Shown here: piece after piece, positions 16,749 through 41,940 of the stretch
How the letters are laid out: each line of letters starts with the position of its first letter
Numbering within the stretch: the stretch's first letter is position 1
Origin: a virus
Taxonomy: Duplodnaviria; Caudoviricetes
Virus record (IMG/VR): IMGVR_UViG_3300027899_000014
Location: 1,176 to 65,175 of that record
Length of the DNA stretch: 64,000 nucleotides
Strand: one strand, 5' to 3'
Position numbers and translations under genes: made by a program
The notes under the pieces: model-generated
Seen by the model: the letters and a program-made list of their open reading frames with translations, nothing else
Database searches by the model: none
Told to the model about the DNA's origin: nothing

Positions 16749-16795
16749 GGTAGTCACGATGCGTCAACATCTACTACCTCTACACATTCTAACAG
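16749..16795 (+). promoter_or_regulatory. HEG-leader structured motif, copy 1
   Basis: GGTAG TCAC GATG cgtcaa CATC TA CTACC TCTA cacattctaacag. Confidence 0.65.
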
Positions 16796-16811
16796 CAATC
16801 AAGAGATCACT

Positions 16812-17456
16812 ATGTCCAGCAATTATATTTATAATCCCACAATTTTATATATAAAATTTCATGTATTAACTGGAAAATTATATTTTGGTAAAACCTCTTG
16901 TAAATCAAGAATAGATAACATTAATTCATATTATGGATCTGGATCATATTGGTCTAATCACATCAAACTGCACGGTAAAAACCATGTAGTTACTTTATGG
17001 AAATCAGATATTTTCTATAATAAAGAACAATTACTATTTGTATCAATATATCTTTCATTATATTATAATATAGTATTTTCAGATTTTTGGGCAAATTTAG
17101 AATTAGAAGATGGATTAAATGGCAGTAGAAATCCTAAAATGGGACCTAGAGGACCATTATCCAAACCTAGAAAACTAAAATCTGATGAGGATAAAGAAAA
17201 ATTAAAAGGACCTAGAGGACCAAATAAAAATAAAAGAGGCCCTATGTCAGAAAATAATAAAGAATCTCGTAGAGGGCCTCAGAAAAATCCAAATCCAAAT
17301 CGGTCTAATTCAAGAGGTATTAGTGGAAAAGATGGAAAAATATATGGTAAACAAAAAAATCCTTCTGGTCCATTTTTTACTATTTTATTAAATAAAAATA
17401 CTTATTCTAAAAAAACCCTTTCTAGATATTATCCAGAATTTAAACAATATTATTAA
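16812..17456 (+). mobile_element. Free-standing Seg-like GIY-YIG homing endonuclease inserted antisense between genes 45 and 44
   Basis: LYIKFHVLTGKLYFGKT...YYGSGSYW..H...WANLELEDG; basic C-terminus with GPRGP repeats. Confidence 0.8.
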
Positions 17457-17458
17457 TT

Positions 17459-17488
17459 TACAGTAGATAATAAAAATCATCTACTGTA
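17459..17488. terminator. Hairpin between the convergent endonuclease and gene 45
   Basis: TACAGTAGAT...ATCTACTGTA 10-bp inverted repeat. Confidence 0.5.
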
Positions 17489-17499
17489 GTAAATATATT

Positions 17500-18153
17500 T
17501 TAGAACGTACTGTCAGCCTCAATTGCGCAATAATATACTAAATCACCAATTGCAGACTCAAATCTGGCAATTCTAGAATGAATAGTTACTGCATAAGTGG
17601 ATTGCAACATTTTTAAGTTCTCAATTTTAATATTTGCTTTAAATACTTTATCAGTTAAACCTACTGCAGTTTCATAACTATTACTTGTTGCATTCTTCTT
17701 ATCACCAATAGTTAAAATGATGCTATTACCATCACCAATAATAGAAAGATCAGATGCTTTTAAAACTCCTGAAGTTCTTTGAATAGTAGTAAATACTGAC
17801 TCAGGTAAGTCAAACACAATATCAGCTGTAGGAAATACGATATCTTTACTTGGAGGTTTTACAATATTTTCACCAGCAGCAAAAAATTTAATTTTATTAT
17901 TTTTCTCTTTAATACTAACATACTTTTCTTCAAATTCTAATTCAGGATCAGTGAATAAAGAAAGAGCACCTAAAAACGAATTAAGATCATATATACCAAA
18001 TTCAATAGGGAATTCCTCAGGTACAGTTATACTCGAAGCAACAGTCTTATTTACTGAGGTGGTTCTTAATCTATTACCTGGACTTAGTAATAGATTACTA
18101 TTAATTGCTGCATAGTTTTTAAGGATGTTAATTGTTTCTTTACTAATTTTCAT
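17500..18153 (-). CDS. 45: Sliding clamp gp45
   Basis: MKISKETINILKNYAAIN, FGIYDLNSFL, YYCAIE. Confidence 0.93.
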   Translation of the reverse strand: MKISKETINILKNYAAINSNLLLSPGNRLRTTSVNKTVASSITVPEEFPIEFGIYDLNSFLGALSLFTDPELEFEEKYVSIKEKNNKIKFFAAGENIVKPPSKDIVFPTADIVFDLPESVFTTIQRTSGVLKASDLSIIGDGNSIILTIGDKKNATSNSYETAVGLTDKVFKANIKIENLKMLQSTYAVTIHSRIARFESAIGDLVYYCAIEADSTF

Positions 18154-18353
18154 AGTGTGGTCTCCATATTTTTAATTTTTTGTTGAATAATCACTTCCAA
18201 GTAATTCACTAAATCCATTGCTTCTTCTTGAGCATGGTTTAACCAATCTAATTCTGTTAAATCAGTTCTTTCTAAGGTAACTCCATACTTGGTTAAACCA
18301 AATTTAGCTCTTTGTTGTAGTTTTTCACATACAGTATCTTCAATTTTTGACAT
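18150..18353 (-). CDS. Small conserved phage protein, possibly MazG-like
   Basis: GLTKYGVTLERTDL...WLNHAQEEAMD..NYLE. Confidence 0.6.
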   Translation of the reverse strand: MSKIEDTVCEKLQQRAKFGLTKYGVTLERTDLTELDWLNHAQEEAMDLVNYLEVIIQQKIKNMETTL

Positions 18354-18403
18354 AATAACTCCATAAAATAATAATTATATTACATATTCGCATAAAAGTA
18401 AAC

Positions 18404-19519
18404 TTAAAATGGTATTTCATCAAATTCATCAATAGATATAATTACTGATTCAATATCTAATTCAGAAGTTTCAGGTTCAGTCATTTTATCAAGCAGATCA
18501 AGAAATGCTACTTTTGTTTGAGAGTCAAAACGATTGCAACATAATTCAACTGCTTTTGTTTTATTACCAAAGATAGCAAAAGCACGAATGATATGAACCA
18601 TTCTGCGTGTGGTAATTAATTCATCTACACCTCCATCATCATAAGTTTTACGAATAGCATCAGCCCATTTAACTAGTAGTTCAGCAAAAGGTACATCAAC
18701 ACAGTTGAATTGTTCCATTAAATTCTTAACAATTTTTAATTCAACATTTGCATTTGGATATTCTTGTTCAAATGTAACAGCAAATCGTTCAAGGAATGCT
18801 TCATTTAATACATTAGTACCAATGTAACGACCATCATCAGAACCTTTACCTTTGGTATTAGCTGTAGCAAGGATATTAAATCCTGCGGCTGGAATGATTA
18901 TTTCATTTTTTAGTTTGAAGTAATATGGTTTACCTTCAAGAATAGGTTGTAAGCATAATAGAGTATTAGCAGAACCTGCATCAATCTCATCAAGTAGCAA
19001 TGTAGTACCTGTACGCATAGCAACCAATACTGGTCCTTCAACAACTTCAACATTACCTTCTTGAAGGGTTTTAGAACCAATCAACTGCTCTTCGTCAGTC
19101 ATCATGTTTAAGTTTACACGAATTAATGGTTTTTTATGCTTGGCACATATTTGCTCAACCATTGTAGATTTACCATTACCAGTAGGTCCGTAAATATACG
19201 AGGGATAAAAAATGCCAGATTTAATGATAGACTCTAAATCTTTGAAGTTACCAAATGGTACAAAGTTAGGATCTTTTTCTGGCACGAGAGAAGTTCCACC
19301 TTTAGGAATGGAAACTGTTTTCAATTCTTTTATAGGAGTGTCTGCAGTAGGTAGTCTATACACACCACGAGCGATTTTATTTTGCATTAACCAATCTGGC
19401 CAATCGCATTGCATTTGATCTTTTACTTCTTTGAGTTGTTTACGAGTGATAGTACCAGTTGTTTCAGCATCTGGAAACAACTGGTACATAGTAGGAATAA
19501 AGTTTGGAATGGTTTTCAT
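18404..19519 (-). CDS. MoxR/CobS-like AAA+ ATPase
   Basis: GPTGNGKS, LLLDEID, ATANTKG, NEAFLERF, ITTRR. Confidence 0.92.
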   Translation of the reverse strand: MKTIPNFIPTMYQLFPDAETTGTITRKQLKEVKDQMQCDWPDWLMQNKIARGVYRLPTADTPIKELKTVSIPKGGTSLVPEKDPNFVPFGNFKDLESIIKSGIFYPSYIYGPTGNGKSTMVEQICAKHKKPLIRVNLNMMTDEEQLIGSKTLQEGNVEVVEGPVLVAMRTGTTLLLDEIDAGSANTLLCLQPILEGKPYYFKLKNEIIIPAAGFNILATANTKGKGSDDGRYIGTNVLNEAFLERFAVTFEQEYPNANVELKIVKNLMEQFNCVDVPFAELLVKWADAIRKTYDDGGVDELITTRRMVHIIRAFAIFGNKTKAVELCCNRFDSQTKVAFLDLLDKMTEPETSELDIESVIISIDEFDEIPF

Positions 19520-19540
19520 AATATAGTTTTTCTCATTTGT

Positions 19541-19593
19541 TAGTTTATGGATCTATTATAACACGTTTTCATCAAATGTAAACGTTTATTTTC
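19541..19593 (-). promoter_or_regulatory. Early promoter (repeat family copy)
   Basis: Minus strand GAAAATAAACGTTTACA...GTGTTATAATAGATCCATAAA. Confidence 0.7.
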
Positions 19594-19596
19594 ATA

Positions 19597-21735
19597 TTAG
19601 GCAATAAGTTTTATAAATTTATTCAATAATAAACGATTCACTTGGCGACTTTCCATTATTTTGGTAAACTTATTTGCAATGGAAGAAGCTGATTGAGTAT
19701 TAGAAACATTTAATTCTACATCTTTAATTCTTAATGACTTTGCAGGAACTAATAATAAATCATCACGACCTTCACATTTTAAAGAAGCAAATCCAGTTGT
19801 TTTAACTTCTCTCTTAACATCTTCATGATCTATATTATAGATATCATTATTAAATGCAGCAGATTTAATTTCATTATTACTTAAAGAACCTGCAATATAA
19901 AATCCAATATTGGCAACATTATATCTATCCTTTATCATTTTTAATAAAGTAGAAGTTTGGTTAGTTGAGTTATTAGTAAATCGATAATTGCATTTAGTTA
20001 TTGGATCAACTAAGAAATTCTTTCCAAATCTAGGAGTGGTTGCTCGTAAACTACTGCCTGCTCCATCAGTTAATGTAATAAAAGACATCTTTTCTACATT
20101 ATTTTTATTGATAAATTTACCTACATACTCAGTCATATACGCCAGTGCACTGTTTAAAGGAGTTCCACCTAATCTATATCCAGAGTTTCTAGTGAATTGA
20201 TTTGTATTAAAAAGTCTTTTTGCCATATCATTGAAATCTTTATTCGACATTTTATTACTGAATAATTCAAATAAAGCACATTCATTTGATGCATTATTTA
20301 ATAAATTAAATTCCGCATATACTTTTGATGTCCTTTCTTTTAATCTGTCTATGTAGGCAGCATTCTCATATCTGTTATAATAATCAGAGAATGCTAATAC
20401 TTGAAATGGAATTTGTGTTCTATGACAAAACATTGATAATGTAATAACTTGTTGAACTACATCTCCAATAACCTCGCACATAGAACCTGACCAATCTACT
20501 AAAAAGATCATCCCATGATTTTTACCTTCTTGAGCAATAGTTATTCTTTTGAATAAATCATCATTCAATTGGTATCCCCAAACCTTTTTCATATCCAATG
20601 AACCTGATTTAGATACTTGATTACGTTTATATTGAGTTGCTGCTTTTTTCATCTCAAATTCTTTTATGAGATAATTAACAGTTTTCAAGGTATTTGATTT
20701 GAATTTATTATATTCTTCATTTGCTTTACTAGTTAAATTATCCATAAATTCATTTGGAGTTTCAGTTTCATTTAAAATAGTTTTATAATCTATAATTATT
20801 TCAGAATCATAATTAATATCTAATCTTAAATAATTATATGTTTCATCCATATCTACTGAATTATTCAAGTTATTCATTAAAGATTTATTAGTTTTACTCT
20901 CTAATTTCTCTTCTATTTCTTCAGGAGTTTTGCTACATTGAGAAGATACAGATTCGTTTTCTTGTTGAATAACTTCTTCTTCTTCTTCAGGTTCTTTAGA
21001 CCCTTCAGACTCTTCAGGTTCTTTAGACCCTTCAGACTCTTCAGGTTCTTTAGACCCTTCAGACTCTTCAGGTTCTTTAGACCCTTCAGACTCTTCAGGT
21101 TCTTTAGACCCTTCAGACTCTTCAGACCCTTCAGACCCTTCAGACTCTTCAGAAGTTCTTCGATCTTCTTGAACTTCTTCACTTTCTAATTCATTTTTAC
21201 AGAATTCGTAAATTTCTTTTGCTAATTGAATAACTTGCGCAGGCGTTTCGGTTTTTTCTGTTCTAATAACAAATACTTTTTCTTGTTCTGAAAATGAAAC
21301 GCCTGACGAAATACCTACTTTAAACCAAAGATTAATTCTATCAATTAAGTTAAGAGTTCTTACATTTTTAATTTCCTTTACACCAAAGAAGTCTCTTTCA
21401 TTAAGTTGTCTATAACCTTCAATCATAGTCTTTTTAAGACCAGGATATTTGCGTTTCATTAGTTTCTCAATACGAACATCTTCAACTACATTAATATAGT
21501 CATGGATTTTGTAATCTTCTTTAGAAGCCTCCATCATATCCATAGTTGTATATAAGGCATGACCGGTCTCATGACCTACAAGCATACTCTCTATTTCAGA
21601 AGTCATACCTTTAAAGATAGGTAAAGTTAATTGTCTTGATTTAATATTAAAAGAGGCAGTCTTAACTGCAGCTTTAACTACAGTTAAGTTTTCTGTTGCG
21701 AGGAGTTTTGCGGTAATGTCTATTGCAGTATTCAT
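19597..21735 (-). CDS. CobT-like protein: N-terminal HExxH metallopeptidase-like domain, acidic linker, vWA domain
   Basis: HETGHALYT...EDVRIE; MIDAS DWSGSM, GGTPL, LTDG. Confidence 0.88.
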   Translation of the reverse strand: MNTAIDITAKLLATENLTVVKAAVKTASFNIKSRQLTLPIFKGMTSEIESMLVGHETGHALYTTMDMMEASKEDYKIHDYINVVEDVRIEKLMKRKYPGLKKTMIEGYRQLNERDFFGVKEIKNVRTLNLIDRINLWFKVGISSGVSFSEQEKVFVIRTEKTETPAQVIQLAKEIYEFCKNELESEEVQEDRRTSEESEGSEGSEESEGSKEPEESEGSKEPEESEGSKEPEESEGSKEPEESEGSKEPEEEEEVIQQENESVSSQCSKTPEEIEEKLESKTNKSLMNNLNNSVDMDETYNYLRLDINYDSEIIIDYKTILNETETPNEFMDNLTSKANEEYNKFKSNTLKTVNYLIKEFEMKKAATQYKRNQVSKSGSLDMKKVWGYQLNDDLFKRITIAQEGKNHGMIFLVDWSGSMCEVIGDVVQQVITLSMFCHRTQIPFQVLAFSDYYNRYENAAYIDRLKERTSKVYAEFNLLNNASNECALFELFSNKMSNKDFNDMAKRLFNTNQFTRNSGYRLGGTPLNSALAYMTEYVGKFINKNNVEKMSFITLTDGAGSSLRATTPRFGKNFLVDPITKCNYRFTNNSTNQTSTLLKMIKDRYNVANIGFYIAGSLSNNEIKSAAFNNDIYNIDHEDVKREVKTTGFASLKCEGRDDLLLVPAKSLRIKDVELNVSNTQSASSIANKFTKIMESRQVNRLLLNKFIKLIA
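20986..21147. repeat. In-frame tandem repeat: five 27-bp units (20986-21120) plus 9-bp subunits, encoding (SEGSKEPEE)n
   Basis: TTCAGGTTCTTTAGACCCTTCAGACTC x5, then TTCAGACCC x2 and TTCAGACTC. Confidence 0.95.
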
Positions 21736-21753
21736 AATATAGTCTCTTTATCA

Positions 21754-21804: not shown

Positions 21805-21828
21805 ATTAAAGTAAAAATTGTTTAAAGG

Positions 21829-21984: not shown

Positions 21985-21987
21985 TGA

Positions 21988-25628: not shown

Positions 25629-25991
25629 TTAATGTATTGTTTTATTAGATACTTTAATATCTTTATAAAATTCTATATCATATTCTTCTTCTAGTTGTCC
25701 AGGTTCTAATTGAATATCAACCATACGTTTATAGTAATTGAGAGTAGATTCGTTTAGAGGTTTGACGATTATTACATCATGCTTCCTCACTTTAAAGATT
25801 TGATCATCCGTAAAAGAACACCATGGAGAACCGGCTAATACTTCTTTATTCTTACCATCAAGGTTGAAATTTACTGTTTTCATTTGAATAGGATACATGA
25901 TTGTGTATTCAGAATCGTCTTCATTTATTAGTACACTTATTAGGTTATCACCATTAACAAGTTTTAAAGTAATATAGTCATGTTGTATCAT
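25629..25991 (-). CDS. Conserved T4-like hypothetical protein, possible Sm-like fold
   Basis: LKLVNGDNLIS...PW..F pattern; usual position between uvsW and 55. Confidence 0.65.
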   Translation of the reverse strand: MIQHDYITLKLVNGDNLISVLINEDDSEYTIMYPIQMKTVNFNLDGKNKEVLAGSPWCSFTDDQIFKVRKHDVIIVKPLNESTLNYYKRMVDIQLEPGQLEEEYDIEFYKDIKVSNKTIH

Positions 25992-27472
25992 ATTGGCACC
26001 TCAATTATTTTGACGGAAAATTCCTCTGCAATATATATCTTATAACGTTCTATACCATGGGTCAAAGTAGTATTCTTCCAAGACTTCCAATGCAAATCAT
26101 CAACTAAATCAAAAAGTCGGCATTCATTTTTGCCATCATTTAAACGAAGACCTCTACCTATAGATTGTAGATTTCTTATTTTAGATTTTGAAGGATGGGC
26201 AAATATGATATTTTCTATTGAAGGCATATTAGTACCTGTACTCATGGTCGCGTACGAGGCTACTATTATAGCATTATCATATTTGCTACAAACATTTCTA
26301 ATTTCTTCACGGTCTTTTGTATCTACTCCACCATGGATATAAAAGACAGGTCTATCTTGATTAACCTTATTTTTTATATCTTCATAAATTACTTTGCCGT
26401 GCTTTTGCACATAGTTAAAAAGTACAAGAGTATTGCCTGTAGTAGATATTGCCAAATTTCGTATAAATTTATTTCTAACAGGATTTGTAACTAACCAATC
26501 AAGTTCTTTAATATACTCAGTACCTTTAAACATCTTACAAGTTTCATCATCATATTTAAGAATAAGTTGCTTAATCTTTAAATTAACTACAGAACCTTCA
26601 TCCATCAATTTTTTGGTTGTTGTTACCTGATAAACTGGTCCAAATAAACCTTCAAGAGTTAATTTATTGGTTTTAGAACTTTCATCAATAGTACCTGTAG
26701 CTCCAATTCTATATTTGGTATTAACACATTTCTCCATAATACCCGAGATAGAAGCGGCAGTCGAGAGATGGCATTCATCAACCATAGCAACATCAAATTG
26801 CTGATAAAAGGATTTTTGTTTTATAGTAATTAATGATTGCCAAGTAGAGATAAGAACATTTTTAGTAAAATCCTTTGTAAATCCAGAATAAAGTTTTTGT
26901 ACATGATGTTCAACATCAAATCCATTTGCGATTGAATAATCAGAAAAATCTGAATACATTTGTTCAACAAGCATGGTGTTAGGAGTTATCAATAATATTT
27001 TTCTATTTGCATTTAAATGCCATCTTATTATAGAATATAAAATTGCAGATTTACCTGAAGCAGTTGGACTTAAAAGTGTAACTCTATTTCTATTAAGTGC
27101 TTTTAGAAGAGCATCTACTTGATAATCCCTAAGAGATATAGATTGACCTCTAGCAGATAAATTCAAACTATCTGCAAATAATTGAATATCATCTAATGAG
27201 TATGTATTCGAATTCTCTATACCTTCATCAATAGTTAATTCATAATCATTTCTATTTGCAAATTCTTTTACATATTGTAATAAACCAGCATATAGATTTT
27301 TAGTTTGCATGTTATACAGTCTAACAAAACCATCCCAGATGCCTGCCTTATAGGTAGGCATAAACTTATAACCTGGGATTCTAAATTTAAAGAAGTCAGA
27401 TAGTTCTTGTTCTATTGAAGAATCAGAAAATATTCTAACATATACTTCATTAAACTTTTCAACTTTAATCAT
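25988..27472 (-). CDS. uvsW: SF2 helicase UvsW
   Basis: LRDYQ, SPTASGKS, DECH, GATGT, QSIGRGLR. Confidence 0.96.
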   Translation of the reverse strand: MIKVEKFNEVYVRIFSDSSIEQELSDFFKFRIPGYKFMPTYKAGIWDGFVRLYNMQTKNLYAGLLQYVKEFANRNDYELTIDEGIENSNTYSLDDIQLFADSLNLSARGQSISLRDYQVDALLKALNRNRVTLLSPTASGKSAILYSIIRWHLNANRKILLITPNTMLVEQMYSDFSDYSIANGFDVEHHVQKLYSGFTKDFTKNVLISTWQSLITIKQKSFYQQFDVAMVDECHLSTAASISGIMEKCVNTKYRIGATGTIDESSKTNKLTLEGLFGPVYQVTTTKKLMDEGSVVNLKIKQLILKYDDETCKMFKGTEYIKELDWLVTNPVRNKFIRNLAISTTGNTLVLFNYVQKHGKVIYEDIKNKVNQDRPVFYIHGGVDTKDREEIRNVCSKYDNAIIVASYATMSTGTNMPSIENIIFAHPSKSKIRNLQSIGRGLRLNDGKNECRLFDLVDDLHWKSWKNTTLTHGIERYKIYIAEEFSVKIIEVPI

Positions 27473-27912
27473 TAGCTACCAGCAAGGAATTTTTTATGTT
27501 CTAGAACGGTTTTAAGTTGCCAATCTCGAGCTTTGATTTGGCCAAGAATAGATTCAAGCAAGTAATTCATAGTCTGTAAATATTCTATTTTAACTTTCAT
27601 ATTATTAAGATCAGTATCTCCATCAAGAAATTGATCCATTTCATTTTTCATAGGTTTTACACCTTGCCATTGTTCCCAGTTTAGGGAAGATAATTCATCT
27701 CTGGAAAGTTCACCTCGATAATATCTAAACTTAGTCTTTTTTAGGACATTAAAATCATTATTATATTTTGTTATTTTGAGTTTTGCTTGCATCAAATATC
27801 TTACATATTTTGCATGCAATTTTGGAACTCGGATGGATTCATCCGAAATATGATTGTCGTCCATGGTAGAGTCTTCATCCCATTCTGAAAGCAATTCTTC
27901 AATTGTAGCCAT
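27472..27912 (-). CDS. uvsY: Recombination mediator UvsY
   Basis: W..DS, PKLHAKY, YYRG, R.WQLK...KFLAG. Confidence 0.9.
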   Translation of the reverse strand: MATIEELLSEWDEDSTMDDNHISDESIRVPKLHAKYVRYLMQAKLKITKYNNDFNVLKKTKFRYYRGELSRDELSSLNWEQWQGVKPMKNEMDQFLDGDTDLNNMKVKIEYLQTMNYLLESILGQIKARDWQLKTVLEHKKFLAGS

Positions 27913-28477: not shown

Positions 28478-29260
28478 TTATAACAATTCAAAACTTATTA
28501 ATTTCCATCCTTTTATTGGTATAGAATTATTTTTGGTTTGTTTGCTCATAAAGTTATTTAATGAATGGTTTTGGAACCAATCTGTATAATTTATGTCTAA
28601 ATGAATTGGATTATTATTTTTAAACTGAACAACCAAATTTTTATACTTATTAGTAAACAATCTATTTTGCAATTTAGTTTCTTTCATTTTTTCCAAAGCT
28701 TCAGGATAATCATCTTTAAATGTTTTACCTTTAAGAGGCGATATTCTTCCATTCTGATATTCTTTTTTTCGTTGTGCACTATTAGCAGCATTCTGTTCTT
28801 CAGTTCTTATTTTACCTTTATTATTATAACCTAATGTATTCCCATTTTTAAATCCCTTTTTACTTTTATGTTCTTCTGATTGGGGTCTACCTTTCATTTT
28901 TTGTCTATGTTTTTCAATAGTTTCAGGGGATCTTTTATGGCCTCTTCCGCCTTTATCTATATTATAACCTTGACCTCCTTGAGTAGAAGTCAATGAATCA
29001 TATTGAATAATAAAATCAGTTTCTATTAATCTGCAATATTCATAATCATTAGATTGCAAAATAACACTACAAGAAAAATTGTGTTTGCCATATTTTTCAA
29101 TAGCAAAAGATATAGGAGATCTTTCTTGATATTTTGGTTTGGTAATTTTACAATGGTCATTAAATCTATGACCTAATTTATTTGATGTATAACCAATATA
29201 TTTCTTATTATTGATTAAATTTGTTATAAGATATATTGAATATATATTTGTGCTGGACAT
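28478..29260 (-). mobile_element. Free-standing GIY-YIG homing endonuclease with NUMOD3-like repeats, between genes 23 and 3
   Basis: YSIYLITNLINNKKYIGYT, AIEKYG, GYNIDKGG, SPETIEK/SEEHKSK repeats. Confidence 0.9.
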
Positions 29261-29276
29261 AACTGTTCCTTAATAG

Positions 29277-29323
29277 TTGTTAGAATGTTTAGAGTAGATA
29301 GGATTGAGGGATCCGTGATCTAC
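29277..29323 (-). promoter_or_regulatory. HEG-leader structured motif, copy 2
   Basis: Minus strand GTAGA TCAC GGAT ccctca ATCC TA TCTAC TCTA aacattctaacaa, preceded by AATAAATA. Confidence 0.65.
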
Positions 29324-29363
29324 AACTTATTTATTAATGATTTATTAAAGCCATTAATCTATC

Positions 29364-29395
29364 AAAATAAAAAAGAAGGGTCAAAAGACCCTTCT
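29364..29395 (-). terminator. Intrinsic terminator after gene 23
   Basis: AGAAGGGTC-TTTT-GACCCTTCT followed by a T-run on the minus strand. Confidence 0.85.
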
Positions 29396-29434
29396 AATTA
29401 TTTCACAAGAACTTAAAAAGTCCTTTAAAATCAA

Positions 29435-30838
29435 TTACATAAGATTTGTAACTTTACAAATTCTGTAGTAATAATTTTTACGGGCTGTCATTGAGTTGTC
29501 CGCATTTGAAGTAGCAGACATTGAAGCATCATCAATATCAACCATTGGATTAGCAACCATACCGTAACGAGTTTTGAAACCAATTTTAGGTTGGAAAGTT
29601 TGTGGATCAACCGCACGAACCATTTGCAATGGAACATAAGGGCAATAGAACAAACCAGCATCAAATGCAGAAGTACCTTTGTAACCTACAGTAAAGAATT
29701 GTAGACCAGCACCAGAAGGATTATTACCACCTGTGTAAGGATCAACATAAACTTTATATTTGCCGTTTAAGATACCAGCAAAAGTAGTAGATGCTTCATC
29801 AACATTCAAACCAGTAGAAAGAGCAGGAGCATAATCTAATACACCAGCCATTGCTAAAGCAGAAGCAACATCTGAAGAACAGATGATGAAGTTACCACGT
29901 CCACGACGTGTTTGTTGAGCGATAGCGTTAGCTTCTCTTTCGATTTGGAACAACAAACCTTTGAATTTTTCAACTGACCAACGACCATTAGAGTCAACGT
30001 CAAGATCAAAAGTACCAGCAGTTGCAGTACCAGTAGCAGCACCTTGTTTAGCAACAGTATAGATAGTACGAATAACTTCACGGTTGATTTCAGCAAGAAT
30101 TTCAGTAGAAAGAATTTTGCTTAATTCGCCTTCAGCGTCAAGACCATGAACTGATTTTAAGTCTTGTGCTAATTCGATAGAGTATTCAGCTTTCAATGCA
30201 CGAGTTTTAGCAACAACTGAAGTTTTCTCAATTGAGAAAGCCATTTCAGGAAATGCATTACCTGCAGTTGAACCTAAAATTTCAGCAGCTGATGTAGCTA
30301 TACCTAAACCAGTTTGATAAGAACCAGTTGATAAACCAGTAGCACCAGTAGGATCAGTACCAGTTGCGCCTGAAGTACCTGTGAAACTTGTATCAGCTTC
30401 ATTAAACAATGCTTCTGTTCCACTTGGACTAGTGTAACGAGATTTCATTGCAAAAATCAAACCAGTAGGTTGAGTCATTGGTTGAACACCGGCAATATCA
30501 TATGCAATCAACTGAGGCATAGCACGACGTACTAAGTTAATCAATACAGGATCAAAACCAGCTACACCACCAGTACCAGCAGCGCCAGCGTTGTATGTAC
30601 CAGTACCAGTAGTATTGATACCATAGTTACCAGCACCACCAATGTTAGTAGAAACTCCACCAGTACCGTTTTCGAAAAGCATGCTATTAGCTTGACTAGC
30701 AGCACTCATTTCACGTTGTTGGTTTTCTAAGATAACCGCTAAGTCACCTCGACGAGTAAAGTCTTTAATTGCAGGTGCGCCTTCAGCGTCAATTACAGGA
30801 GCCCATTTTTCTAAAAGGGCAGAACGATTTAATTCCAT
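29435..30838 (-). CDS. 23: Major capsid protein gp23
   Basis: LVRRAMP, GVQPMTQPTGLIFA, RALKAEYSIELAQDL, FYCPYVPL, FQPKIGFKTRYG. Confidence 0.98.
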   Translation of the reverse strand: MELNRSALLEKWAPVIDAEGAPAIKDFTRRGDLAVILENQQREMSAASQANSMLFENGTGGVSTNIGGAGNYGINTTGTGTYNAGAAGTGGVAGFDPVLINLVRRAMPQLIAYDIAGVQPMTQPTGLIFAMKSRYTSPSGTEALFNEADTSFTGTSGATGTDPTGATGLSTGSYQTGLGIATSAAEILGSTAGNAFPEMAFSIEKTSVVAKTRALKAEYSIELAQDLKSVHGLDAEGELSKILSTEILAEINREVIRTIYTVAKQGAATGTATAGTFDLDVDSNGRWSVEKFKGLLFQIEREANAIAQQTRRGRGNFIICSSDVASALAMAGVLDYAPALSTGLNVDEASTTFAGILNGKYKVYVDPYTGGNNPSGAGLQFFTVGYKGTSAFDAGLFYCPYVPLQMVRAVDPQTFQPKIGFKTRYGMVANPMVDIDDASMSATSNADNSMTARKNYYYRICKVTNLM

Positions 30839-35803: not shown

Positions 35804-35805
35804 TG

Positions 35806-37311: not shown

Positions 37312-37341
37312 ATTTTATCTCAAAATTATAATGAAAAATTA

Positions 37342-37944
37342 TTAGAAACTAAATGGAATTGTTCCTACTGGAGTATCAATTGATATGTTAGTACCAAAAG
37401 AAGAACCATCAGTATCTGTACCAGTATTAGATGTAAAGTAGTTATAAGTAAATTCTACATCAAAAGTTTCAAGTGTGTTTATTACGTCAAAATCTAAAGC
37501 AATTGGAGAAATAGTTGTAGGATATGCATCAGCAAATTTATATACTTTTAAAGTAGCACCATTACGATCTAATTGATGAACTTCTAAATCTACTTGATAA
37601 TCAGAAGGATTTGTTTTACCTTCAGTAGCAGCATATCGTTGAATCCCAGCTTGCCAAGATTCAAATGCATTACGTAAACCAAAGGTTGTATCATTAATAA
37701 TTGTTATATTCCACGGTTGGAAACTACGTTCACCTGCAATATTAACAACTCTGCCTCTATATGGAACTTCTACATTTGTTATAGTAGAACCAGGTAATTG
37801 AGCAGCTTTACATAAAAACTGAGCTCTTGATCCTTCAAATGCACCGGCAGATACATAAGAAGGGAAATTTAAGTACGCTCTAAATTGATTGGCACGAGCA
37901 CCGCCACCAATCAATTGAGATTTAAAATCTGATATATTTGCCAT
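37342..37944 (-). CDS. 19: Tail tube protein gp19
   Basis: GGARANQF, CKAAQLP, AGERSFQPW..T. Confidence 0.93.
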   Translation of the reverse strand: MANISDFKSQLIGGGARANQFRAYLNFPSYVSAGAFEGSRAQFLCKAAQLPGSTITNVEVPYRGRVVNIAGERSFQPWNITIINDTTFGLRNAFESWQAGIQRYAATEGKTNPSDYQVDLEVHQLDRNGATLKVYKFADAYPTTISPIALDFDVINTLETFDVEFTYNYFTSNTGTDTDGSSFGTNISIDTPVGTIPFSF

Positions 37945-37975
37945 TTTTTTATTCCTTAGATATACGACTTTGTAT

Positions 37976-37983
37976 TATTTATA
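37976..37983 (-). promoter_or_regulatory. T4-type late promoter
   Basis: TATAAATA upstream of gene 19. Confidence 0.65.
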
Positions 37984-37987
37984 GTTG

Positions 37988-38015
37988 AAAATTGGGAGTG
38001 TATTTCAACTCCCAA
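37988..38015 (-). terminator. Terminator hairpin after gene 18
   Basis: TTGGGAGT...ACTCCCAA inverted repeat with a T-run on the minus strand. Confidence 0.6.
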
Positions 38016-38022
38016 ATACTAA

Positions 38023-39942
38023 TTAACCACCAATTTCAGAGAAACTGATACCACTTCTTACTGCTATAAAGTTCAAAGTAATATAGTTAATTGAACGGGC
38101 AGGTTTAACATAAATGTCGCCTACAAATTCATTACGATCAATTACCTCTCCAGTATTATTAGTATCGTCACAAATTACTCTAAAGTCTAGAATACCTCGA
38201 CGACCCTTAACATCTCGTAAGAAAGGTTCTACAATATTTTTAAATTGAGCTCTTGTAAAAGTATCATTAAATTCAAATAATTGATATTTAGATGCAGTAG
38301 AAATTGCTTTCTCAAGAACAATAAACAATCTACGAACATTGATACGATCAAATGCAGAAGGCTTAGCCAATAATGTTTTATCACCAAATAATATAGTACC
38401 TTGTCCAGGGAATGTAACTACTGGATTAACACCATTTTTATAGATAGTATCTCTATCTGTTTTAGATAAACTTGCGGCAAGTTTAACAATATTTTTCACT
38501 TGACCACGATTATGCCCAGCAGGAGACCACCAAGCATCATTAGTATAATCAGTACGTGCAGTCATACCAGCAATATCACCGTTTAATGGTACCCATCGAT
38601 ATCTGTCATTATATCTATCGTATTGATACTTATAACCAGAATCTAGAACACCATAAGAAGACGATGTTAATCCATCTCTATAAGCATTAATTTTAGTAGT
38701 AACTGCTGAACCTGAACCTATAATTGCATCACCTGTAGATATATCTTGTGCAGATACAAATACAACACAATCTTTACGAATTTCTGCAATACTTTGAATT
38801 ACATAGTTAGCAGTAAGAAAATTTGCTTTACCGACAGGTATTAAACTAATATCATATTGACTATCATCTAAGTATAATTCCCAAGATGTCATTGCATATG
38901 ATCCAGCTGCATCAGAAAAATCATCAACCGCACCTGAAAAGGAATCATTCATAGCTCCTTTTAAAGAAGCATAAGCAGTACCTGAAACAGCAGCGGTACC
39001 CCATGCTCCTCCAGTATTAGTGTTTGCGGTATGTTTCATCCACCAAATATATTGTGATCTTGTATTAATTACTTCTTTATAATAATTAAGTGTACCATCA
39101 TATTTTTTAGCATCTGATAATTTAGAAACATAAGCAAATTTTTCTAAAATTGAACCTTTTGTTCCAGTGAACGCTCCATCTTCATCAATGATAATGATAT
39201 GAAGTTCATCCCCAGTAACATTAGTGTTAGAAGCATAATCTGAAGTTCCGGGCGCAGAATCAAATTGAGTATAATATGCCCAATCAGCTTTTAATGCAGT
39301 TCCTGCAGGAACAGAAATTAAAGAACCAGGAGACTCTAAAGTTAATGAAGTAGCAGATTCAATAGATTTAACAGTACCAATAACTACGCCTAAATCAGTT
39401 TTAAGAATAGCACCTACATGTAGTTGAGTAGTAAAAAGTGTACTAACCCCTACCACAGTTGTTCCACCAATAGGAACAATACTAGAAGAGGTAACACTAG
39501 TCAACACTAAATTTTTAAATGTATTAGAGTCTGCCATTGATACTTTCAATGAATTACCTAAAATACCGGCATATTTTGCTGCCCAAGAACAGTTATATGT
39601 TGAAGTAGTTAAAGTACCATAGTGACTTTCATTTTTAATTTTAGTAGCAGTACCACCCGTACTAACTGCATTAACTGCAGAATTAGAATCAATTCTAGAT
39701 ACATATAAACTACTTGTATAAGACAAAAAGTTTGCTGCAGTAAAAAATGATTCAAAAGTACTATCATTTGGCATACCAAATTGTTTTACTAATTCAACTT
39801 CTGATGATAATTTGATAGGGTATTCTATTGGACCCCACTGGAACTTACCAGCAAATGCCCCAGTTGATGATGAAACTGCTGGTACAATATTAGTAAAATC
39901 TTTTTCTACTACTGTAACTCCAGGACTTAACGCGTATGCCAT
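38023..39942 (-). CDS. 18: Tail sheath protein gp18
   Basis: SPGVTVVE, FQWGP, WWSPAG, FDRINVRRLF, KPARSINYI. Confidence 0.97.
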   Translation of the reverse strand: MAYALSPGVTVVEKDFTNIVPAVSSSTGAFAGKFQWGPIEYPIKLSSEVELVKQFGMPNDSTFESFFTAANFLSYTSSLYVSRIDSNSAVNAVSTGGTATKIKNESHYGTLTTSTYNCSWAAKYAGILGNSLKVSMADSNTFKNLVLTSVTSSSIVPIGGTTVVGVSTLFTTQLHVGAILKTDLGVVIGTVKSIESATSLTLESPGSLISVPAGTALKADWAYYTQFDSAPGTSDYASNTNVTGDELHIIIIDEDGAFTGTKGSILEKFAYVSKLSDAKKYDGTLNYYKEVINTRSQYIWWMKHTANTNTGGAWGTAAVSGTAYASLKGAMNDSFSGAVDDFSDAAGSYAMTSWELYLDDSQYDISLIPVGKANFLTANYVIQSIAEIRKDCVVFVSAQDISTGDAIIGSGSAVTTKINAYRDGLTSSSYGVLDSGYKYQYDRYNDRYRWVPLNGDIAGMTARTDYTNDAWWSPAGHNRGQVKNIVKLAASLSKTDRDTIYKNGVNPVVTFPGQGTILFGDKTLLAKPSAFDRINVRRLFIVLEKAISTASKYQLFEFNDTFTRAQFKNIVEPFLRDVKGRRGILDFRVICDDTNNTGEVIDRNEFVGDIYVKPARSINYITLNFIAVRSGISFSEIGG

Positions 39943-40006
39943 TTTAAATTCTCCTAAGAAATAATATTCGGTGTATACGATGAATCTTAACTTTGATTCA
40001 TTGTAT

Positions 40007-40014
40007 TATTTATA
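40007..40014 (-). promoter_or_regulatory. T4-type late promoter
   Basis: TATAAATA upstream of gene 18. Confidence 0.7.
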
Positions 40015-40026
40015 AAAATTCATATT

Positions 40027-41136
40027 TCAGAAATTTAGAAGCATAATAGGCGCTTCTAATTCTATTTGACCATCATCATAAAAACCAAACGGGGTTAATT
40101 CTTCCTCAATTAATCTCATTTGATTTTGATACATTATTTGTCTAAGTTCTACGTTATTTAATTCTTTAAAATATGGTTGAGTGGTTAACCACGAAAAAAT
40201 AACAAGTCCCATTACTAAATCATCTTTGTAACTATCATCTGCTGCGTATGAATCCTTTACTTCAATAAAGGTAGATAGTTCAGAAATCGTATCCATATCA
40301 TTAATAAGTAGTTTATTTTCTACTAATAACGATTTTAAATTGGCACAACCAATTCTTTTTGTTTTTTTATCGGTATTTACACCTAAAAAAGATCTACCAC
40401 CAAATCCGCCTCCGGCAGATTGTCCTCTATCTAATCCCTTTGCTTTTTTATTTATAATAATCATATTTTCATATTCTAACTCATGATGTAATATATGTGC
40501 CACCTGTTCAGATATATTTATCTCAATTAAAACGTGTGCATTATTATAATCTTTTGCAACTTTATAAATTATATTTGGAAATAGTAAAGGACTTATATGA
40601 TTATCTTTATACTTAGCAACTTGTTTATATGGTATTTCTGTGATATCTATTACCTGAATTACCGAATTATCTCCACCAACTCCCTTTGACGGATCAATTG
40701 TCATTACATAGTTTCTACCTCTTTCAGGTATTTCAAAAACATCTAATCCTTCTCTTGAGTAATCAATAACACTTGGTGATAGTTTAGATAAAGTATCGGA
40801 AGGTATCAATGTTAAACTTGAACCTAAGAACGAACAATTGTGAGAAATTAAATCATTTGAATAATATAAATTTCCATTATCAACATTTATTGGATCATAT
40901 ACATCTATTTCACCATAAGAAATAATATCAACAATTATTTTATCATTTAAAACATCTCCATTACTCAATAATCCTGCAATAATTTCTTTATCATTATCTA
41001 TAAATCTATGATTTTCTGTTACTATAATATTACTATTATCTACAAATGATATTTGTATAGTGTTCCTTTTATTTTTAATGATACCATCAAAGGATTGAAA
41101 ACCAGAAGGAGTCAATATTTTATATCTAGAGTTCAT
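40027..41136 (-). CDS. 17: Terminase large subunit C-terminal (nuclease) part, behind a 100-aa split-intein C-fragment
   Basis: YKILTPSGF...VTENHRF...VYDPINV...ISHN|CSFLGSS; nuclease motifs IDPSKGVGGD and DDLVM. Confidence 0.93.
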   Translation of the reverse strand: MNSRYKILTPSGFQSFDGIIKNKRNTIQISFVDNSNIIVTENHRFIDNDKEIIAGLLSNGDVLNDKIIVDIISYGEIDVYDPINVDNGNLYYSNDLISHNCSFLGSSLTLIPSDTLSKLSPSVIDYSREGLDVFEIPERGRNYVMTIDPSKGVGGDNSVIQVIDITEIPYKQVAKYKDNHISPLLFPNIIYKVAKDYNNAHVLIEINISEQVAHILHHELEYENMIIINKKAKGLDRGQSAGGGFGGRSFLGVNTDKKTKRIGCANLKSLLVENKLLINDMDTISELSTFIEVKDSYAADDSYKDDLVMGLVIFSWLTTQPYFKELNNVELRQIMYQNQMRLIEEELTPFGFYDDGQIELEAPIMLLNF

Positions 41137-41884
41137 TTTGTAATATTTGCGTTTTTCTTAATATATTTAATATAGTTCTAGCTGATACATTAAAATCAGA
41201 TGCAACTGATTTAGCAAAAACATTTTCATATGAACACCACTTTCCATTTTTAGCTATATAATTATAAGGTATTTCTAATTTAGGTTTTGATTCATATAAA
41301 GATAATACTTTAGAATATAATTCTAATAATTCTTTTTTCTTTTCTTCCTTTATGTTTATAGTTTTATTCTTTCTTATACTAGACCATAATTTTCTAGTAT
41401 CTTTAGAAGGAACTCTTCCCTGTAATTTTAAATTGGGTTTACCCAATTTACTTTTTGATATATTTGTTTTTGTTTTTTCAGTTCTTGTTGAACCTGTATT
41501 TGGGTTGAATTCTTTTGATAAACCTTTAGCCCAATGATTTTCCGATGCCATTTTTCTTTGTTCTAAAGTAAATTTTTTTCCAGGAATACCTCCATTTAAA
41601 CCGTTTTCAGGTTCCAGGTTAGCCCATTCTTTAGATTCTACTATATTATTTTCTTCTGATAACTGTAAAGCAGGTTCAACTATAGATGCATCATGATATA
41701 ACTCAGATACCCACAGGGTAACTATATGTTCTTTACCATGTTTTTTAATATGGCGCATCCAATGTTTACCAGAACCATTATATTTGTATGGATCTTTAGT
41801 GGTTTTACCAAAATATTTTAATCCAGTTATATTGTGTTGTTTGATATAAAGATATGTAGGTTCAATGGGAGTATAAATATTCAT
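41126..41884 (-). mobile_element. Free-standing Seg-like GIY-YIG homing endonuclease between the terminase halves
   Basis: YLYIKQHNITGLKYFGKTT..PYKYNGSG..W..H...WANLEPENG; overlaps the start of 17-C. Confidence 0.85.
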
Positions 41885-41905
41885 ACTGGTGTCCTCTTAT
41901 GACAT

Positions 41906-41940
41906 TAGAGCTAGTAGATGTTTGCTGCATCATGACTAGC
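41906..41940 (-). promoter_or_regulatory. HEG-leader structured motif, copy 3 (overlaps the last codons of 17-N)
   Basis: Minus strand GCTAG TCAT GATG cagcaaa CATC TA CTAGC TCTA. Confidence 0.65.

What the first reader, a model, noticed from the sequence alone, without database searches (positions are those of the whole stretch)
16749..41940. A covarying structured motif precedes all three GIY-YIG homing endonuclease genes
Seen, three copies aligned: GGTAG-TCAC-GATG-cgtcaa-CATC-TA-CTACC-TCTA (16749, +); GTAGA-TCAC-GGAT-ccctca-ATCC-TA-TCTAC-TCTA (29323, -); GCTAG-TCAT-GATG-cagcaaa-CATC-TA-CTAGC-TCTA (41940, -). The stem sequences differ but always pair (5 bp + 4 bp), while the TCAY/TA internal loop and trailing TCTA are conserved. 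This is the signature of a protein- or ligand-recognised fold. Each copy lies after a late-type promoter and 21-29 nt before the ATG. Copies 1 and 2 also share ACATTCTAACA and ATGTCCAGCA despite encoding different GIY-YIG subfamilies. The motif is absent before the HNH gene. Knowledge: T4 endonuclease genes use simple RBS-occluding hairpins, but this fold does not itself cover the RBS. Inference: a possibly undescribed cis-regulatory RNA (autorepression, processing or activation), or an ssDNA hairpin, that travels with these mobile genes.
Basis: partly seen in the sequence, partly recalled or inferred. Interest (0 to 1): 0.88.

Follow-up and report, generated by a model that had tools for sequence, protein, structure and literature searches.

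The report
Conserved hairpin leader of homing endonucleases
A short hairpin that keeps its shape while its letters change sits in front of many unrelated selfish nuclease genes in uncultured T4-like phages, and the way its pairs vary suggests that it works on the opposite strand, probably as a small antisense RNA that restrains those genes.

Summary
The three hairpins lie at 16749-16782(+), 29290-29323(-) and 41906-41940(-). A covariance model finds only these three in the window: 44-47 bits, next best 11.8.

The motif is a real, widespread family. In 63 distinct copies, 98.3% of 687 pair cells pair and 10 of 11 pairs change on both sides. I found 144 distinct copies in 3.05 Mb of fetched viral DNA, with 0 in reversed controls.

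The motif lies inside the mobile cassette. It precedes several nuclease families: GIY-YIG variants, SegE-like, two HNH types and NUMOD3 proteins. Rfam has no match. Eleven cultured phages, T4 included, have none.

New here:
- A second covarying hairpin holds the Shine-Dalgarno sequence.
- A late-promoter core lies in reverse orientation over codons 2-4.
- Nearly all non-Watson-Crick pairs are A·C on the gene strand, which is G·U on the complement.

I therefore favour a roughly 65-85 nt cis-antisense RNA (0.45) over a sense 5'-UTR element (0.3). No transcript data could be obtained. Dassa et al. 2009 reported hairpins upstream of such genes and may have seen the same element.

The parts
16749..16782 (+). 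Hairpin P1 copy 1 (stem-loop 16749-16778, tail TCTA 16779-16782), before HEG1
   Evidence: 47.1 bits
29290..29323 (-). Hairpin P1 copy 2 with TCTA tail, before HEG2
   Evidence: 44.2 bits
41906..41940 (-). Hairpin P1 copy 3 with TCTA tail, before HEG3. It overlaps the last codons and the TAG stop (41913-41911) of the terminase-N/N-intein ORF.
   Evidence: (45.2 bits)
16702..16708 (+). Late-promoter core ATAAATA of the HEG1 cassette, 40 nt before P1
29328..29334 (-). Late-promoter core (AATAAATA) 4 nt before P1 copy 2
41973..41979 (-). Late-promoter core (TATAAATA) 32 nt before P1 copy 3
16826..16832 (-). ATAAATA in reverse orientation inside HEG1; proposed antisense late promoter
41873..41879 (+). 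ATAAATA in reverse orientation over codons 2-4 of HEG3; proposed antisense late promoter
41890..41904 (-). Second hairpin P2 of copy 3 (TGTC/GACA stem, Shine-Dalgarno in the loop)
41885..41952 (+). Predicted antisense RNA of the HEG3 module (inferred ends): P2as, UUAGA, P1as, U-rich tail
   Evidence: -20.5 kcal/mol, z -3.12, 0 of 200 shuffles as stable; the sense strand gives -12.4, z -1.06
16737..16820 (-). Predicted antisense RNA of the HEG1 module (inferred ends)
   Evidence: -22.9 kcal/mol, z -2.18; sense -11.0, z -1.32
29252..29335 (+). Equivalent antisense stretch of the HEG2 module. It folds well, but the reverse box is imperfect (TATATAT on the sense strand).
   Evidence: -21.4 kcal/mol, z -2.61; sense -12.2, z -1.48
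16812..17456 (+). HEG1, 214 aa, YLYIK-type GIY-YIG-like homing endonuclease. The cassette is about 16697-17487, inverted between gp44 and gp45.
28478..29260 (-). HEG2, 260 aa, canonical GIY-YIG, downstream of gp23
41126..41884 (-). HEG3, 252 aa, YLYIK-type, between the two halves of the terminase gene

Best explanation
The motif is the larger hairpin (P1) of a portable leader module of about 95 nt. Free-standing homing endonuclease (HEG) cassettes of an uncultured clade of T4-like phages carry it at their 5' end.

**Shown.** The order of the module is:
1. the late-promoter core nATAAATA;
2. 3-5 nt (sometimes 20-56 nt);
3. P1: 5 variable bp, a U-A pair, a bulged C, an R:Y pair, a bulged C, a G-C pair, 3 variable bp and the loop;
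4. YCUAA;
5. a short second hairpin P2 that carries the Shine-Dalgarno sequence;
6. (CAGC)AUG;
7. NNU AUU UAU.

The last element is the reverse complement of the late-promoter core. The module is shared by unrelated nuclease families.

**Inferred.** Where pairs are not Watson-Crick, they are almost always A·C on the gene strand, which is G·U on the complement. So the fold that selection maintains is that of the complementary strand.

Most likely the module encodes a cis-antisense RNA of about 65-85 nt.
- It starts from the reverse late-promoter box over codons 2-4, so its 5' end would lie next to the HEG start codon.
- Its first hairpin (P2as) shows the anti-Shine-Dalgarno sequence in its loop.
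- Its last hairpin is P1, followed by a U-rich stretch that is the complement of the HEG's own promoter.

The antisense RNA would pair with the HEG leader and hold down translation of a potentially harmful nuclease. In this it resembles the antisense partners of type I toxin-antitoxin pairs, and it recalls CfrI of phage S-PM2.

The same DNA also gives the late HEG mRNA a hairpin at or near its 5' end, so a sense role may coexist.
For: **Family and structure.**
- 63 distinct copies: 98.3% of cells paired, 10 of 11 pairs with changes on both sides, covariation 0.838 against 0.256 in shuffles (0 of 500).
- 144 distinct copies in 3.05 Mb, 0 in reversed controls.

**Part of the cassette.**

**Unbiased association with HEG genes.**
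- Whole-contig scans gave 3 hits in the window, 10 hits in 4 of 5 contigs and 22 hits in 5 of 5 contigs.
- Every newly found copy is followed by an ORF with a HEG-like start.
- 133 of 144 distinct copies are followed by an ORF. In 97 of those 133 the ATG lies 19-22 nt after the tail.

**Strand.**
- Position 8/30: GC 31, AU 25, other (A·C) 7, GU 0.
The G8/T30 pattern gave 10 of 118, one of them a G+C-rich chance hit.
- Stems of P1: sense A·C or C·A 13, G·U 2, other 4, in 1008 cells.
- P2 is present in 89 of 94 distinct short leaders (shuffled mean 21, maximum 35). Its non-Watson-Crick pairs are A·C 36 and G·U 4.
- The antisense strand is the more stable in 95 of 96 leaders, mean -18.6 against -13.8 kcal/mol.
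- Dinucleotide-shuffle z-scores: mean -2.04 antisense against -1.49 sense; antisense lower in 69 of 96.
- In the window the antisense z-scores are -3.12, -2.18 and -2.61, against -1.06, -1.32 and -1.48 for the sense strand.

**Reverse promoter box.**
- TATTTAT lies in the first 40 nt of 100 of 133 ORFs.
- The codon before Ile ends in T in 113 of 114, whatever its amino acid. Ile is ATT 96 and ATA 18. Tyr is TAT 112 and TAC 2.
- ATAAATA is depleted in the window (40 found, 62.7 +/- 8 expected) and strand-biased (31 on -, 9 on +). Two of the few wrong-strand copies lie at these HEG starts.
- In a complete 194.6-kb relative, 8 of the 15 antisense-oriented in-ORF boxes sit at the start of motif-linked HEG genes.

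**Precedent.** An antisense RNA runs opposite a HEG in the T4-like cyanophage S-PM2 (PMC2984593, passages read).
Against: - No transcript evidence. The one read-laying run gave RNA contigs over gp23 only and none over the module.
- 33 of 133 ORFs lack TATTTAT. Window copy 2 has no exact reverse box.
- The simple terminator scan finds nothing at copy 1. The U-rich stretch usually starts 3-5 nt after the stem, which is poor for an intrinsic terminator. It is also confounded with the sense promoter.
- The sense promoter ends 3-5 nt before P1 in 84 of 133. P1 would then lie at the very 5' end of the late mRNA, which fits a sense role.
- The invariant bulged C residues (C7 in 52 of 52, C9 in 51 of 52) are explained by neither strand model.
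- The wobble counts are not phylogenetically independent. 26 of the 36 A·C cells in P2 come from two arm types.
- The z-score advantage of the antisense strand is moderate.
Confidence: 0.45

Rival explanations
1. Sense-strand 5'-leader element. P1 folds in the HEG mRNA. It acts as a 5'-terminal stabilising hairpin, or as the binding site of a phage or host protein that tunes translation or decay. It is followed by a G-poor standby region and the Shine-Dalgarno sequence.
For: - The orientation is always that of the HEG: 36 of 36 loci hits on the + strand, and all 47 loci hits.
- The distance to the ATG is fixed (19-22 nt in 97 of 133).
- The promoter core ends 3-5 nt before P1 in 84 of 133, so a late transcript would begin at about P1 nucleotides 1-3 (the T4 promoter geometry is recalled).
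- The invariant bulged C residues and the YCUAA tail suggest specific recognition.
- The phage encodes RegA.
Against: - G·U is almost absent on the sense strand (1 of 687 cells), while A·C is frequent. That is the reverse of what a sense RNA fold gives.
- When the promoter is far upstream, P1 is not 5'-terminal.
- Sense folds have weak z-scores.
- RegA is known to bind unstructured initiation regions, not hairpins (recalled).
Confidence: 0.3
2. T4-type control that limits translation to late transcripts. In read-through transcripts the transcribed promoter box (A)UAAAUA pairs with UAUUUAU at +5 to +11. This closes a domain around P1, P2, the Shine-Dalgarno sequence and the AUG, and blocks initiation. 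Transcripts from the cassette's own late promoter lack the 5' arm and are translated. P1 would serve as a structural spacer.
For: - Perfect 7-10 nt complementarity at fixed places.
- The long-range helix appears in the minimum-energy fold of 11 of 27 long leaders.
- The logic is established for I-TevI, mobE and segB (PMC2988022 and PMC3014915, passages read).
- Dassa et al. describe late-promoter boxes within such hairpins (PMC2677866, section 14).
Against: - The flanks of the two boxes do not covary. Outward extension is 0.57 against 0.48 in permutations (117 of 1000 as high); inward there is none.
- The predicted unpaired probability of the Shine-Dalgarno sequence hardly differs between long and late forms.
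- It does not explain the covariation, the invariant bulges or the antisense wobble pattern of P1 and P2.
Confidence: 0.12
3. DNA-level element. The hairpin forms in single-stranded DNA of the template strand during replication or break repair. A recombination or replication protein recognises it and so aids spread or retention of the cassette.
For: - The pairs are almost only Watson-Crick, with the wobble on the complementary strand. DNA G·T would show the same pattern.
- The hairpin lies within 16-50 nt of the 5' boundary of the cassette.
Against: - There is no matching element at the 3' boundary.
- Homing by break repair needs no cis site (established knowledge).
- The tight register with the Shine-Dalgarno sequence, the ATG and the two promoter boxes points to expression.
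- A second hairpin that holds the Shine-Dalgarno sequence has no obvious DNA role.
Confidence: 0.1

Closest known systems
Regulatory hairpins that sequester the ribosome binding site of T-even endonuclease genes (I-TevI, I-TevII, I-TevIII, T4 segB, Aeh1 mobE). Source: PMC2988022 and PMC3014915, passages read.
   Same: A hairpin in the leader of a homing endonuclease gene, next to a T4-type late promoter. The presumed purpose is to limit expression of the nuclease.
   Different: - Those hairpins contain the ribosome binding site and the promoter lies inside them. They are not one conserved family.
- Here P1 lies upstream of the binding site and the promoter is outside it.
- The structure is one covarying family shared by several nuclease families.
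- The pair statistics favour the opposite strand.
- Model R2 finds nothing in T4, Aeh1 or phage 25.
Hairpin upstream of seg43(25) in Aeromonas phage 25 (mentioned in PMC2988022, passage read)
   Same: A stable hairpin immediately upstream of the ribosome binding site that does not sequester it.
   Different: No sequence or model match in phage 25. It is a single case without comparative support.
Hairpins upstream of free-standing endonuclease genes in 'fractured genes' (Dassa et al. 2009, PMC2677866; section 14 and hairpin passages read)
   Same: - Metagenomic T4-like phage loci, a terminase split by an atypical split intein among them.
[quoted passage not shown]
- It may be the same element.
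   Different: - They read it as an Aeh1-like translational hairpin on the sense strand.
- The text I read reports no covariation analysis, no strand analysis, no second hairpin and no reverse promoter box.
- Their Figure 4A and Supplementary Figure S4 could not be seen, so identity is untested.
CfrI, the roughly 225-nt antisense RNA of cyanophage S-PM2 (PMC2984593, passage read)
   Same: An antisense RNA opposite a homing endonuclease gene in a T4-like phage of the Kyanoviridae, co-expressed with it.
   Different: CfrI is longer and links psbA to the endonuclease gene. R2 finds no copy of the motif in S-PM2, while the positive control in the same call gave 6 hits. CfrI is a working analogy, not a relative.

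Membership tests
T4-type hairpin of endonuclease genes that sequesters the ribosome binding site | The hairpin contains the Shine-Dalgarno sequence | tested here: not met
   P1 ends 19-36 nt before the ATG and never includes the Shine-Dalgarno sequence. The small P2 does hold it in its loop and 3' arm.
T4-type hairpin of endonuclease genes that sequesters the ribosome binding site | The late promoter lies inside the hairpin, so late transcripts cannot form it | tested here: inconclusive
   The promoter core ends 3-5 nt before P1 in 84 of 133. A 7-nt complement at +5 to +11 could form a long-range stem, but no covariation supports it.
Any Rfam 15 family | A match to a curated covariance model at or near its gathering score, on either strand | tested here: not met
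   0 matches at gathering score in the window. At E up to 5 on 13 loci (39,427 bases) there were 3 weak matches, none at the motif.
cis-antisense regulatory RNA | A transcript from the strand opposite the target | not testable with these tools
   Only assembled RNA contigs were on offer, and none covers the module.
cis-antisense regulatory RNA | A promoter in reverse orientation at a fixed place | tested here: met
   By sequence only. TATTTAT is present in 100 of 133, the codon-independent T in 113 of 114, and TAT in 112 of 114. It is a rare wrong-strand box.
cis-antisense regulatory RNA | A fold selected on the antisense strand, with a recognition loop complementary to the target | tested here: met
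   Wobble asymmetry, stability and z-scores, and the anti-Shine-Dalgarno sequence in the P2as loop in all three window copies.
Intrinsic (Rho-independent) terminator, read on the antisense strand | A G+C-rich stem directly followed by a run of U | tested here: inconclusive
   The simple scan found 0 around copy 1, but it cannot score bulged stems. An A-run abuts P1 on the sense strand when the promoter is far. Otherwise the U-rich box starts 3-5 nt after the stem.
CfrI of S-PM2 | Sequence or structure homology | tested here: not met
   R2 gives 0 hits in NC_006820, with 6 hits in the control genome in the same call.
Fractured gene with split intein and free-standing endonuclease (context of copy 3) | The N-extein ends before a Cys that opens the intein, the C part ends in HN plus Cys, and the endonuclease ORF lies between and overlaps the C part | tested here: met
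   - The N fragment reads ...FNQEVL|CVAGNTIITLQ...IY*.
- The C fragment reads MNSRY...LISHN|CSFLGSS.
- Residues 4-105 of the C fragment match an engineered split intein C part (6dsl_B, E 2.2e-13) and the gp41-1 intein (6qaz_A).
- Residues 98-325 of the C fragment match T4 gp17, and residues 6-237 of the N fragment match T4 gp17 112-340.
- The ORFs overlap at 41126-41136.

The most novel reading that the evidence does not exclude
Free-standing homing endonucleases of at least six unrelated nuclease families share one self-contained control cassette that works on both strands. Two convergent late promoters bracket about 70 nt. This stretch encodes the nuclease's leader on one strand and a two-hairpin antisense RNA on the other. 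The selfish gene would thus carry its own 'antidote', like a type I toxin-antitoxin pair, and the cassette would be exchanged between endonuclease genes as a module.
Probability: 0.4. Interest if true: 0.8.

Novelty: new variant of a known kind. Interest (0 to 1): 0.68.

Why it matters
Free-standing homing endonucleases must be expressed enough to spread, yet not enough to harm the phage that carries them. How they fit into a foreign transcription programme has been worked out only case by case in T-even phages.

A single leader with strong covariation, shared by GIY-YIG, SegE-like, HNH and NUMOD3 nucleases in many uncultured phages, would be the first family-level regulatory element for these genes.

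If the antisense reading is right, it adds a class of small phage RNAs and a toxin-antitoxin-like logic to selfish nucleases. It also explains the odd conserved M-x-I-Y start of unrelated proteins as a promoter written through a reading frame.

In practice:
- The motif marks endonuclease cassettes and their 5' borders in metagenomes.
- The model can be offered to Rfam.
- The strand question can be tested with a handful of synonymous and wobble-switch mutants.

Tried and rejected
**Searches and tests that gave nothing**
- Rfam at gathering score and at E up to 5: no match at the motif.
- blastn of the copy 2 leader against cultured phages: no match.
- tblastn of HEG3: only two Vibrio phage records, at 39% identity.
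- R2 on HTVC008M, Melnitz, DSL-LC02, S-SRM01 and Sf-FS3: 0 hits.
- R2 on T4, Aeh1, phage 25, LIMEstone1 and Vibrio SRILMA: 0 hits.
- R2 on S-PM2: 0 hits. For named records the tool's first look listed 0-1 candidates, so I added a plain pattern check on five of them (0 matches) and a positive control.
- Simple terminator scan around copy 1: 0 found.

**Transcript evidence**
- 13 coded runs held small shares of the gp23 stretch.
- Four were laid. RNA contigs cover gp23 only and none covers the motif. This says nothing either way about transcription of the module. I draw no conclusion on habitat.

**Ideas considered and dropped**
- Covariation between the inner 3' arm of P1 and the ribosome binding site: only considered by eye and dropped.
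- Group I intron, ribozyme, integron attC-like or IS200/IS605-like end: no Rfam match, no second end, and no matching recombinase seen in the ORFs I annotated.
- The conserved TAA as a stop codon for upstream ORFs: rejected, because TCTAT and TCTAC tails occur.
- Long-range promoter/+5 pairing: no flank covariation.

**Tools and files not available**
- Supplementary files and figures of Dassa et al. could not be seen.

**Rows dropped.** The relaxed regex gave 12 control hits and 3 evident false positives (L158, L192, L034 at 1211). I did not use it for counts. The stricter scan had 0 control hits. It still holds one G+C-rich chance hit (listed as L298 and L333). Among the 11 copies without an ORF it also holds four orphan hairpins, three copies cut by the locus end and three with short ORFs.

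Full report
**1. The observation**

All three adopt one fold: a 6-bp outer stem, a 3-by-1 internal loop (CAY against U), a 4-bp inner stem, a 6-7 nt loop and a UCUA tail.

A covariance model built from the three was run over the whole window with filters off. It finds only these three, at 44-47 bits, and the next best match scores 11.8 bits. Rfam has nothing at gathering score. It also has nothing at E up to 5 at the motif in 13 loci. Both searches cover both strands.

**2. Context in the window**

The window is nearly all of a 65-kb IMG/VR record from a T4-like phage.

| Gene | Coordinates |
|---|---|
| gp23 | 29435-30838 |
| gp44 | 15718-16683 |
| gp45 | 17500-18153 |
| RegA | 14575-14988 |
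| UvsY | 27472-27912 |

Its gp23 is 56-58% identical to gp23 of Kyanoviridae such as Pelagibacter phage HTVC008M, Methylophilales phage Melnitz and cyanophages.

The three ORFs behind the motif match the PHROG family 'homing endonuclease'. HEG2 is a canonical GIY-YIG protein. HEG1 and HEG3 belong to a YLYIKxH...KYFGKT variant.

HEG3 sits inside a terminase gene that is a 'fractured gene' with an atypically split intein. Copy 3 of the motif overlaps the last codons of the N-intein ORF.

A fourth endonuclease, an HNH protein at 3289-4077, sits in a second fractured gene, UvsX.

**3. A real and widespread family**

Relatives of HEG3 in viral contigs gave 46 loci.
- They carry the motif on the gene's strand in 36 places by model R1.
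- Model R2, rebuilt from those hits, gave 50 matches over the window and those 46 loci together.
- By eye, 19 of 23 distinct upstream regions have it and 4 do not: L035, L040, L044 and L048.

I then scanned whole contigs, which does not depend on any protein.
- 10 hits in 4 of 5 contigs.
- 22 hits in 5 of 5 contigs.
- A complete 194.6-kb genome has 6 model hits, plus 2 copies with long loops that the model missed.

All newly found copies precede ORFs. The ORF families include:
- an HNH family (SKPHNxHYLNRY...EKHHICPK);
- HNH_3;
- NUMOD3 with HNH;
- SegE_GIY-YIG;
- canonical GIY-YIG;
- other proteins that match homing-endonuclease PHROGs.

Searches that started from HEG2, the HNH protein and the SegE-like protein found the motif before their closer relatives too.

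On 63 distinct copies taken without regard to pairing, 98.3% of 687 cells pair and 10 of 11 pairs change on both sides. The covariation score is 0.838 against 0.256 in shuffles, with 0 of 500 shuffles as high. Slid partners give 31-47% paired.

A strict scan of all 3.05 Mb fetched gave 144 distinct hairpins, with 0 in reversed sequence.
- 133 are followed by an ORF.
- The other 11 are one chance hit, three cut by the locus end, three with the usual start context but a short ORF, and four orphans.

Eleven cultured phages gave no hit.

**4. Part of the mobile cassette**

Three comparisons of sites with and without a cassette fix the borders.
- L011 carries an extra cassette exactly between the stop and start codons that overlap in the window at 27473-27479. 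The insert begins with the promoter box, then the hairpin.
- L025 lacks HEG1. Window 16697-17487 is replaced there by 28 nt.
- L025 carries its own cassette between window 14350 and 14363.

One RNA contig of a relative joins 28487 to 29521 with 131 other letters between, which is an allele without HEG2.

**5. Anatomy of the module**

- ATAAATA lies within 80 nt upstream in 114 of 133 copies. It ends 3-5 nt before the hairpin in 84.
- After the YCTAA tail, 97 of 133 reach the ATG in 19-22 nt.
- In 89 of 94 distinct short leaders, a second 4-bp hairpin (P2) starts right after the tail. It carries the Shine-Dalgarno sequence in its loop and 3' arm. Shuffled leaders give a mean of 21 and a maximum of 35.
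- Nearly all the ORFs, whatever their family, begin M-x-I-Y.
- At nucleotide level this start is NNT ATT TAT. The base before Ile is T in 113 of 114 although the amino acid varies. Ile is ATT 96 and ATA 18. Tyr is TAT 112 and TAC 2.
- TATTTAT is the reverse complement of the late-promoter core.
- That core is depleted and strongly strand-biased in the window: 40 found against 62.7 expected, 31 on the coding strand and 9 on the other.
- In the complete relative, 8 of the 15 in-ORF copies in antisense orientation lie at the start of motif-linked endonuclease genes.

**6. Which strand folds**

An RNA fold tolerates G·U and rejects A·C. On the gene strand the reverse is seen.

| Place | Sense A·C | Sense G·U |
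|---|---|---|
| Position 8/30, 63 unbiased copies (also G-C 31, A-U 25) | 7 | 0 |
| P1 stems | 13 | 2 |
| P2 | 36 | 4 |

The A8/C30 pattern gave 81 stem-validated of 120 stretches (60 distinct). The G8/T30 pattern gave 10 of 118 (5 distinct, one a chance hit).

A sense A·C is a G·U on the complement. Further support:
- The complement is the more stable strand in 95 of 96 leaders.
- It has the lower shuffle z-score in 69 of 96.
- In the window it gives z-scores of -3.1, -2.2 and -2.6, against -1.1, -1.3 and -1.5 for the sense strand.
- In all three window copies the antisense P2 shows the anti-Shine-Dalgarno sequence in its loop.

Caveats:
- The counts are not independent events.
- 26 of the 36 A·C cells in P2 come from two arm types.
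- The z-score gap is moderate.

**7. Mechanism**

*Shown:* the family, its covariation, its place in the cassette, its link to many nuclease families, the second hairpin, the reverse box and the strand asymmetry.

*Inferred:* the module encodes a cis-antisense RNA of about 65-85 nt.
- It starts from the reverse late-promoter box. By the T4 geometry, which I recall and did not test, the start would fall beside the HEG start codon.
- It runs through P2as and UUAGA.
- It ends with P1 and the U-rich complement of the HEG's own promoter.
- It would pair with the HEG leader and restrain translation.

Results against this reading:
- No transcript data could be had.
- A quarter of the copies lack the exact reverse box, window copy 2 among them.
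- The terminator reading is weak.
- The sense promoter's tight spacing to P1 would also suit a 5'-terminal mRNA hairpin.
- The invariant bulged C residues remain unexplained by any model.

The T4-style 'late transcripts only' stem between the promoter box and +5 to +11 is possible, but no covariation supports it. These readings do not exclude one another.

**8. Comparison with what is known**

- Regulatory hairpins of T-even endonuclease genes sequester the ribosome binding site and enclose the late promoter (PMC2988022 and PMC3014915, passages read). P1 does neither, and T4, Aeh1 and phage 25 lack the motif.
- Dassa et al. 2009 (PMC2677866; section 14 and all hairpin passages read) found hairpins before 15 of 16 free-standing endonuclease genes in fractured-gene loci. 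[quoted passage not shown] This may well be the same element, read as a sense translational hairpin. I could not see the figure or the supplement.
- CfrI of S-PM2 is an antisense RNA opposite an endonuclease gene (PMC2984593, passage read). It is a precedent, not a relative.
- Four literature searches listed no paper that describes this motif, a strand analysis of it, or an antisense RNA module shared among endonuclease genes. PMC10448857 holds none of the five terms I searched in it. PMC10690425 names homing endonucleases only in its reference list.

**9. Verdict**

I rate it a new variant of a known kind, that is, regulatory RNA structure at the 5' end of phage homing endonuclease genes. Prior sighting by Dassa et al. 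is possible. Interest 0.68.

Noticed in passing
window 40027-42825 (-): The large terminase is a 'fractured gene'. The N fragment (41911-42825) ends with a roughly 40-aa N-intein (CVAGNTIITLQ...). HEG3 lies between. The C fragment (40027-41136) starts with a roughly 110-aa C-intein that ends in HN|C. This atypical split point matches the Lake Gatun terminase locus of Dassa et al. 2009 and the engineered split intein 'CatC' in the PDB.
   Followed up: yes
window 2709-4979 (-): UvsX is a second fractured gene. UvsX-N with an N-intein lies at 4116-4979. An HNH endonuclease lies at 3289-4077, with a promoter box but no hairpin. The C-intein with UvsX-C lies at 2709-3404; its real start is probably the internal MKIKSIKF, and the intein ends in ISHN|T.
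   Followed up: partly
window 16712-16740 (-): A near-consensus sigma-70-type promoter (TTTACA, 17 nt, TATAAT; 11 of 12) lies on the strand opposite HEG1. It sits inside the cassette, just upstream of P1, and faces gp44. The same element (GTTATATGTAAAC...) recurs in L010, L051, L059 and L060. An inverted cassette may bring a promoter for the gene it cut off.
   Followed up: partly
all loci; window 16812, 29260, 41884: Unrelated nucleases behind the motif nearly all begin M-x-I-Y-(T/S). The conservation is at nucleotide level (NNT ATT TAT), so a DNA or RNA signal is written through the first codons.
   Followed up: yes
whole window: ATAAATA is under-represented (40 found, 62.7 +/- 8 expected) and strand-biased (31 on -, 9 on +). 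This suggests that stray late promoters are selected against, above all in antisense orientation.
   Followed up: partly
window 25629-25991 (-): A 120-aa ORF has a weak Pfam Sm_like match (E 6e-5, below the curated cut-off). It is a possible RNA-binding protein and was not examined further.
   Followed up: no
window 55310-55400 (-): ARAGORN calls a tRNA of undetermined type with a two-base anticodon loop oddity, inside the 2236-aa ORF 55200-61910. Probably a false call.
   Followed up: no
L312, L330, L335 (one lineage); L437: Orphan copies of the hairpin with no endonuclease ORF behind them. The first three are also among the rare G8/T30 variants. They may be remnants left after loss of the gene, as Dassa et al. 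describe for their gp41-7 locus.
   Followed up: no
window 13713-14171 (-), 12651-13064 (-), 8083-8649 (-): Accessory genes: an Hsp20 family protein, a VanY/M15 peptidase and an Rv2179c-like 3'-5' exoribonuclease.
   Followed up: no
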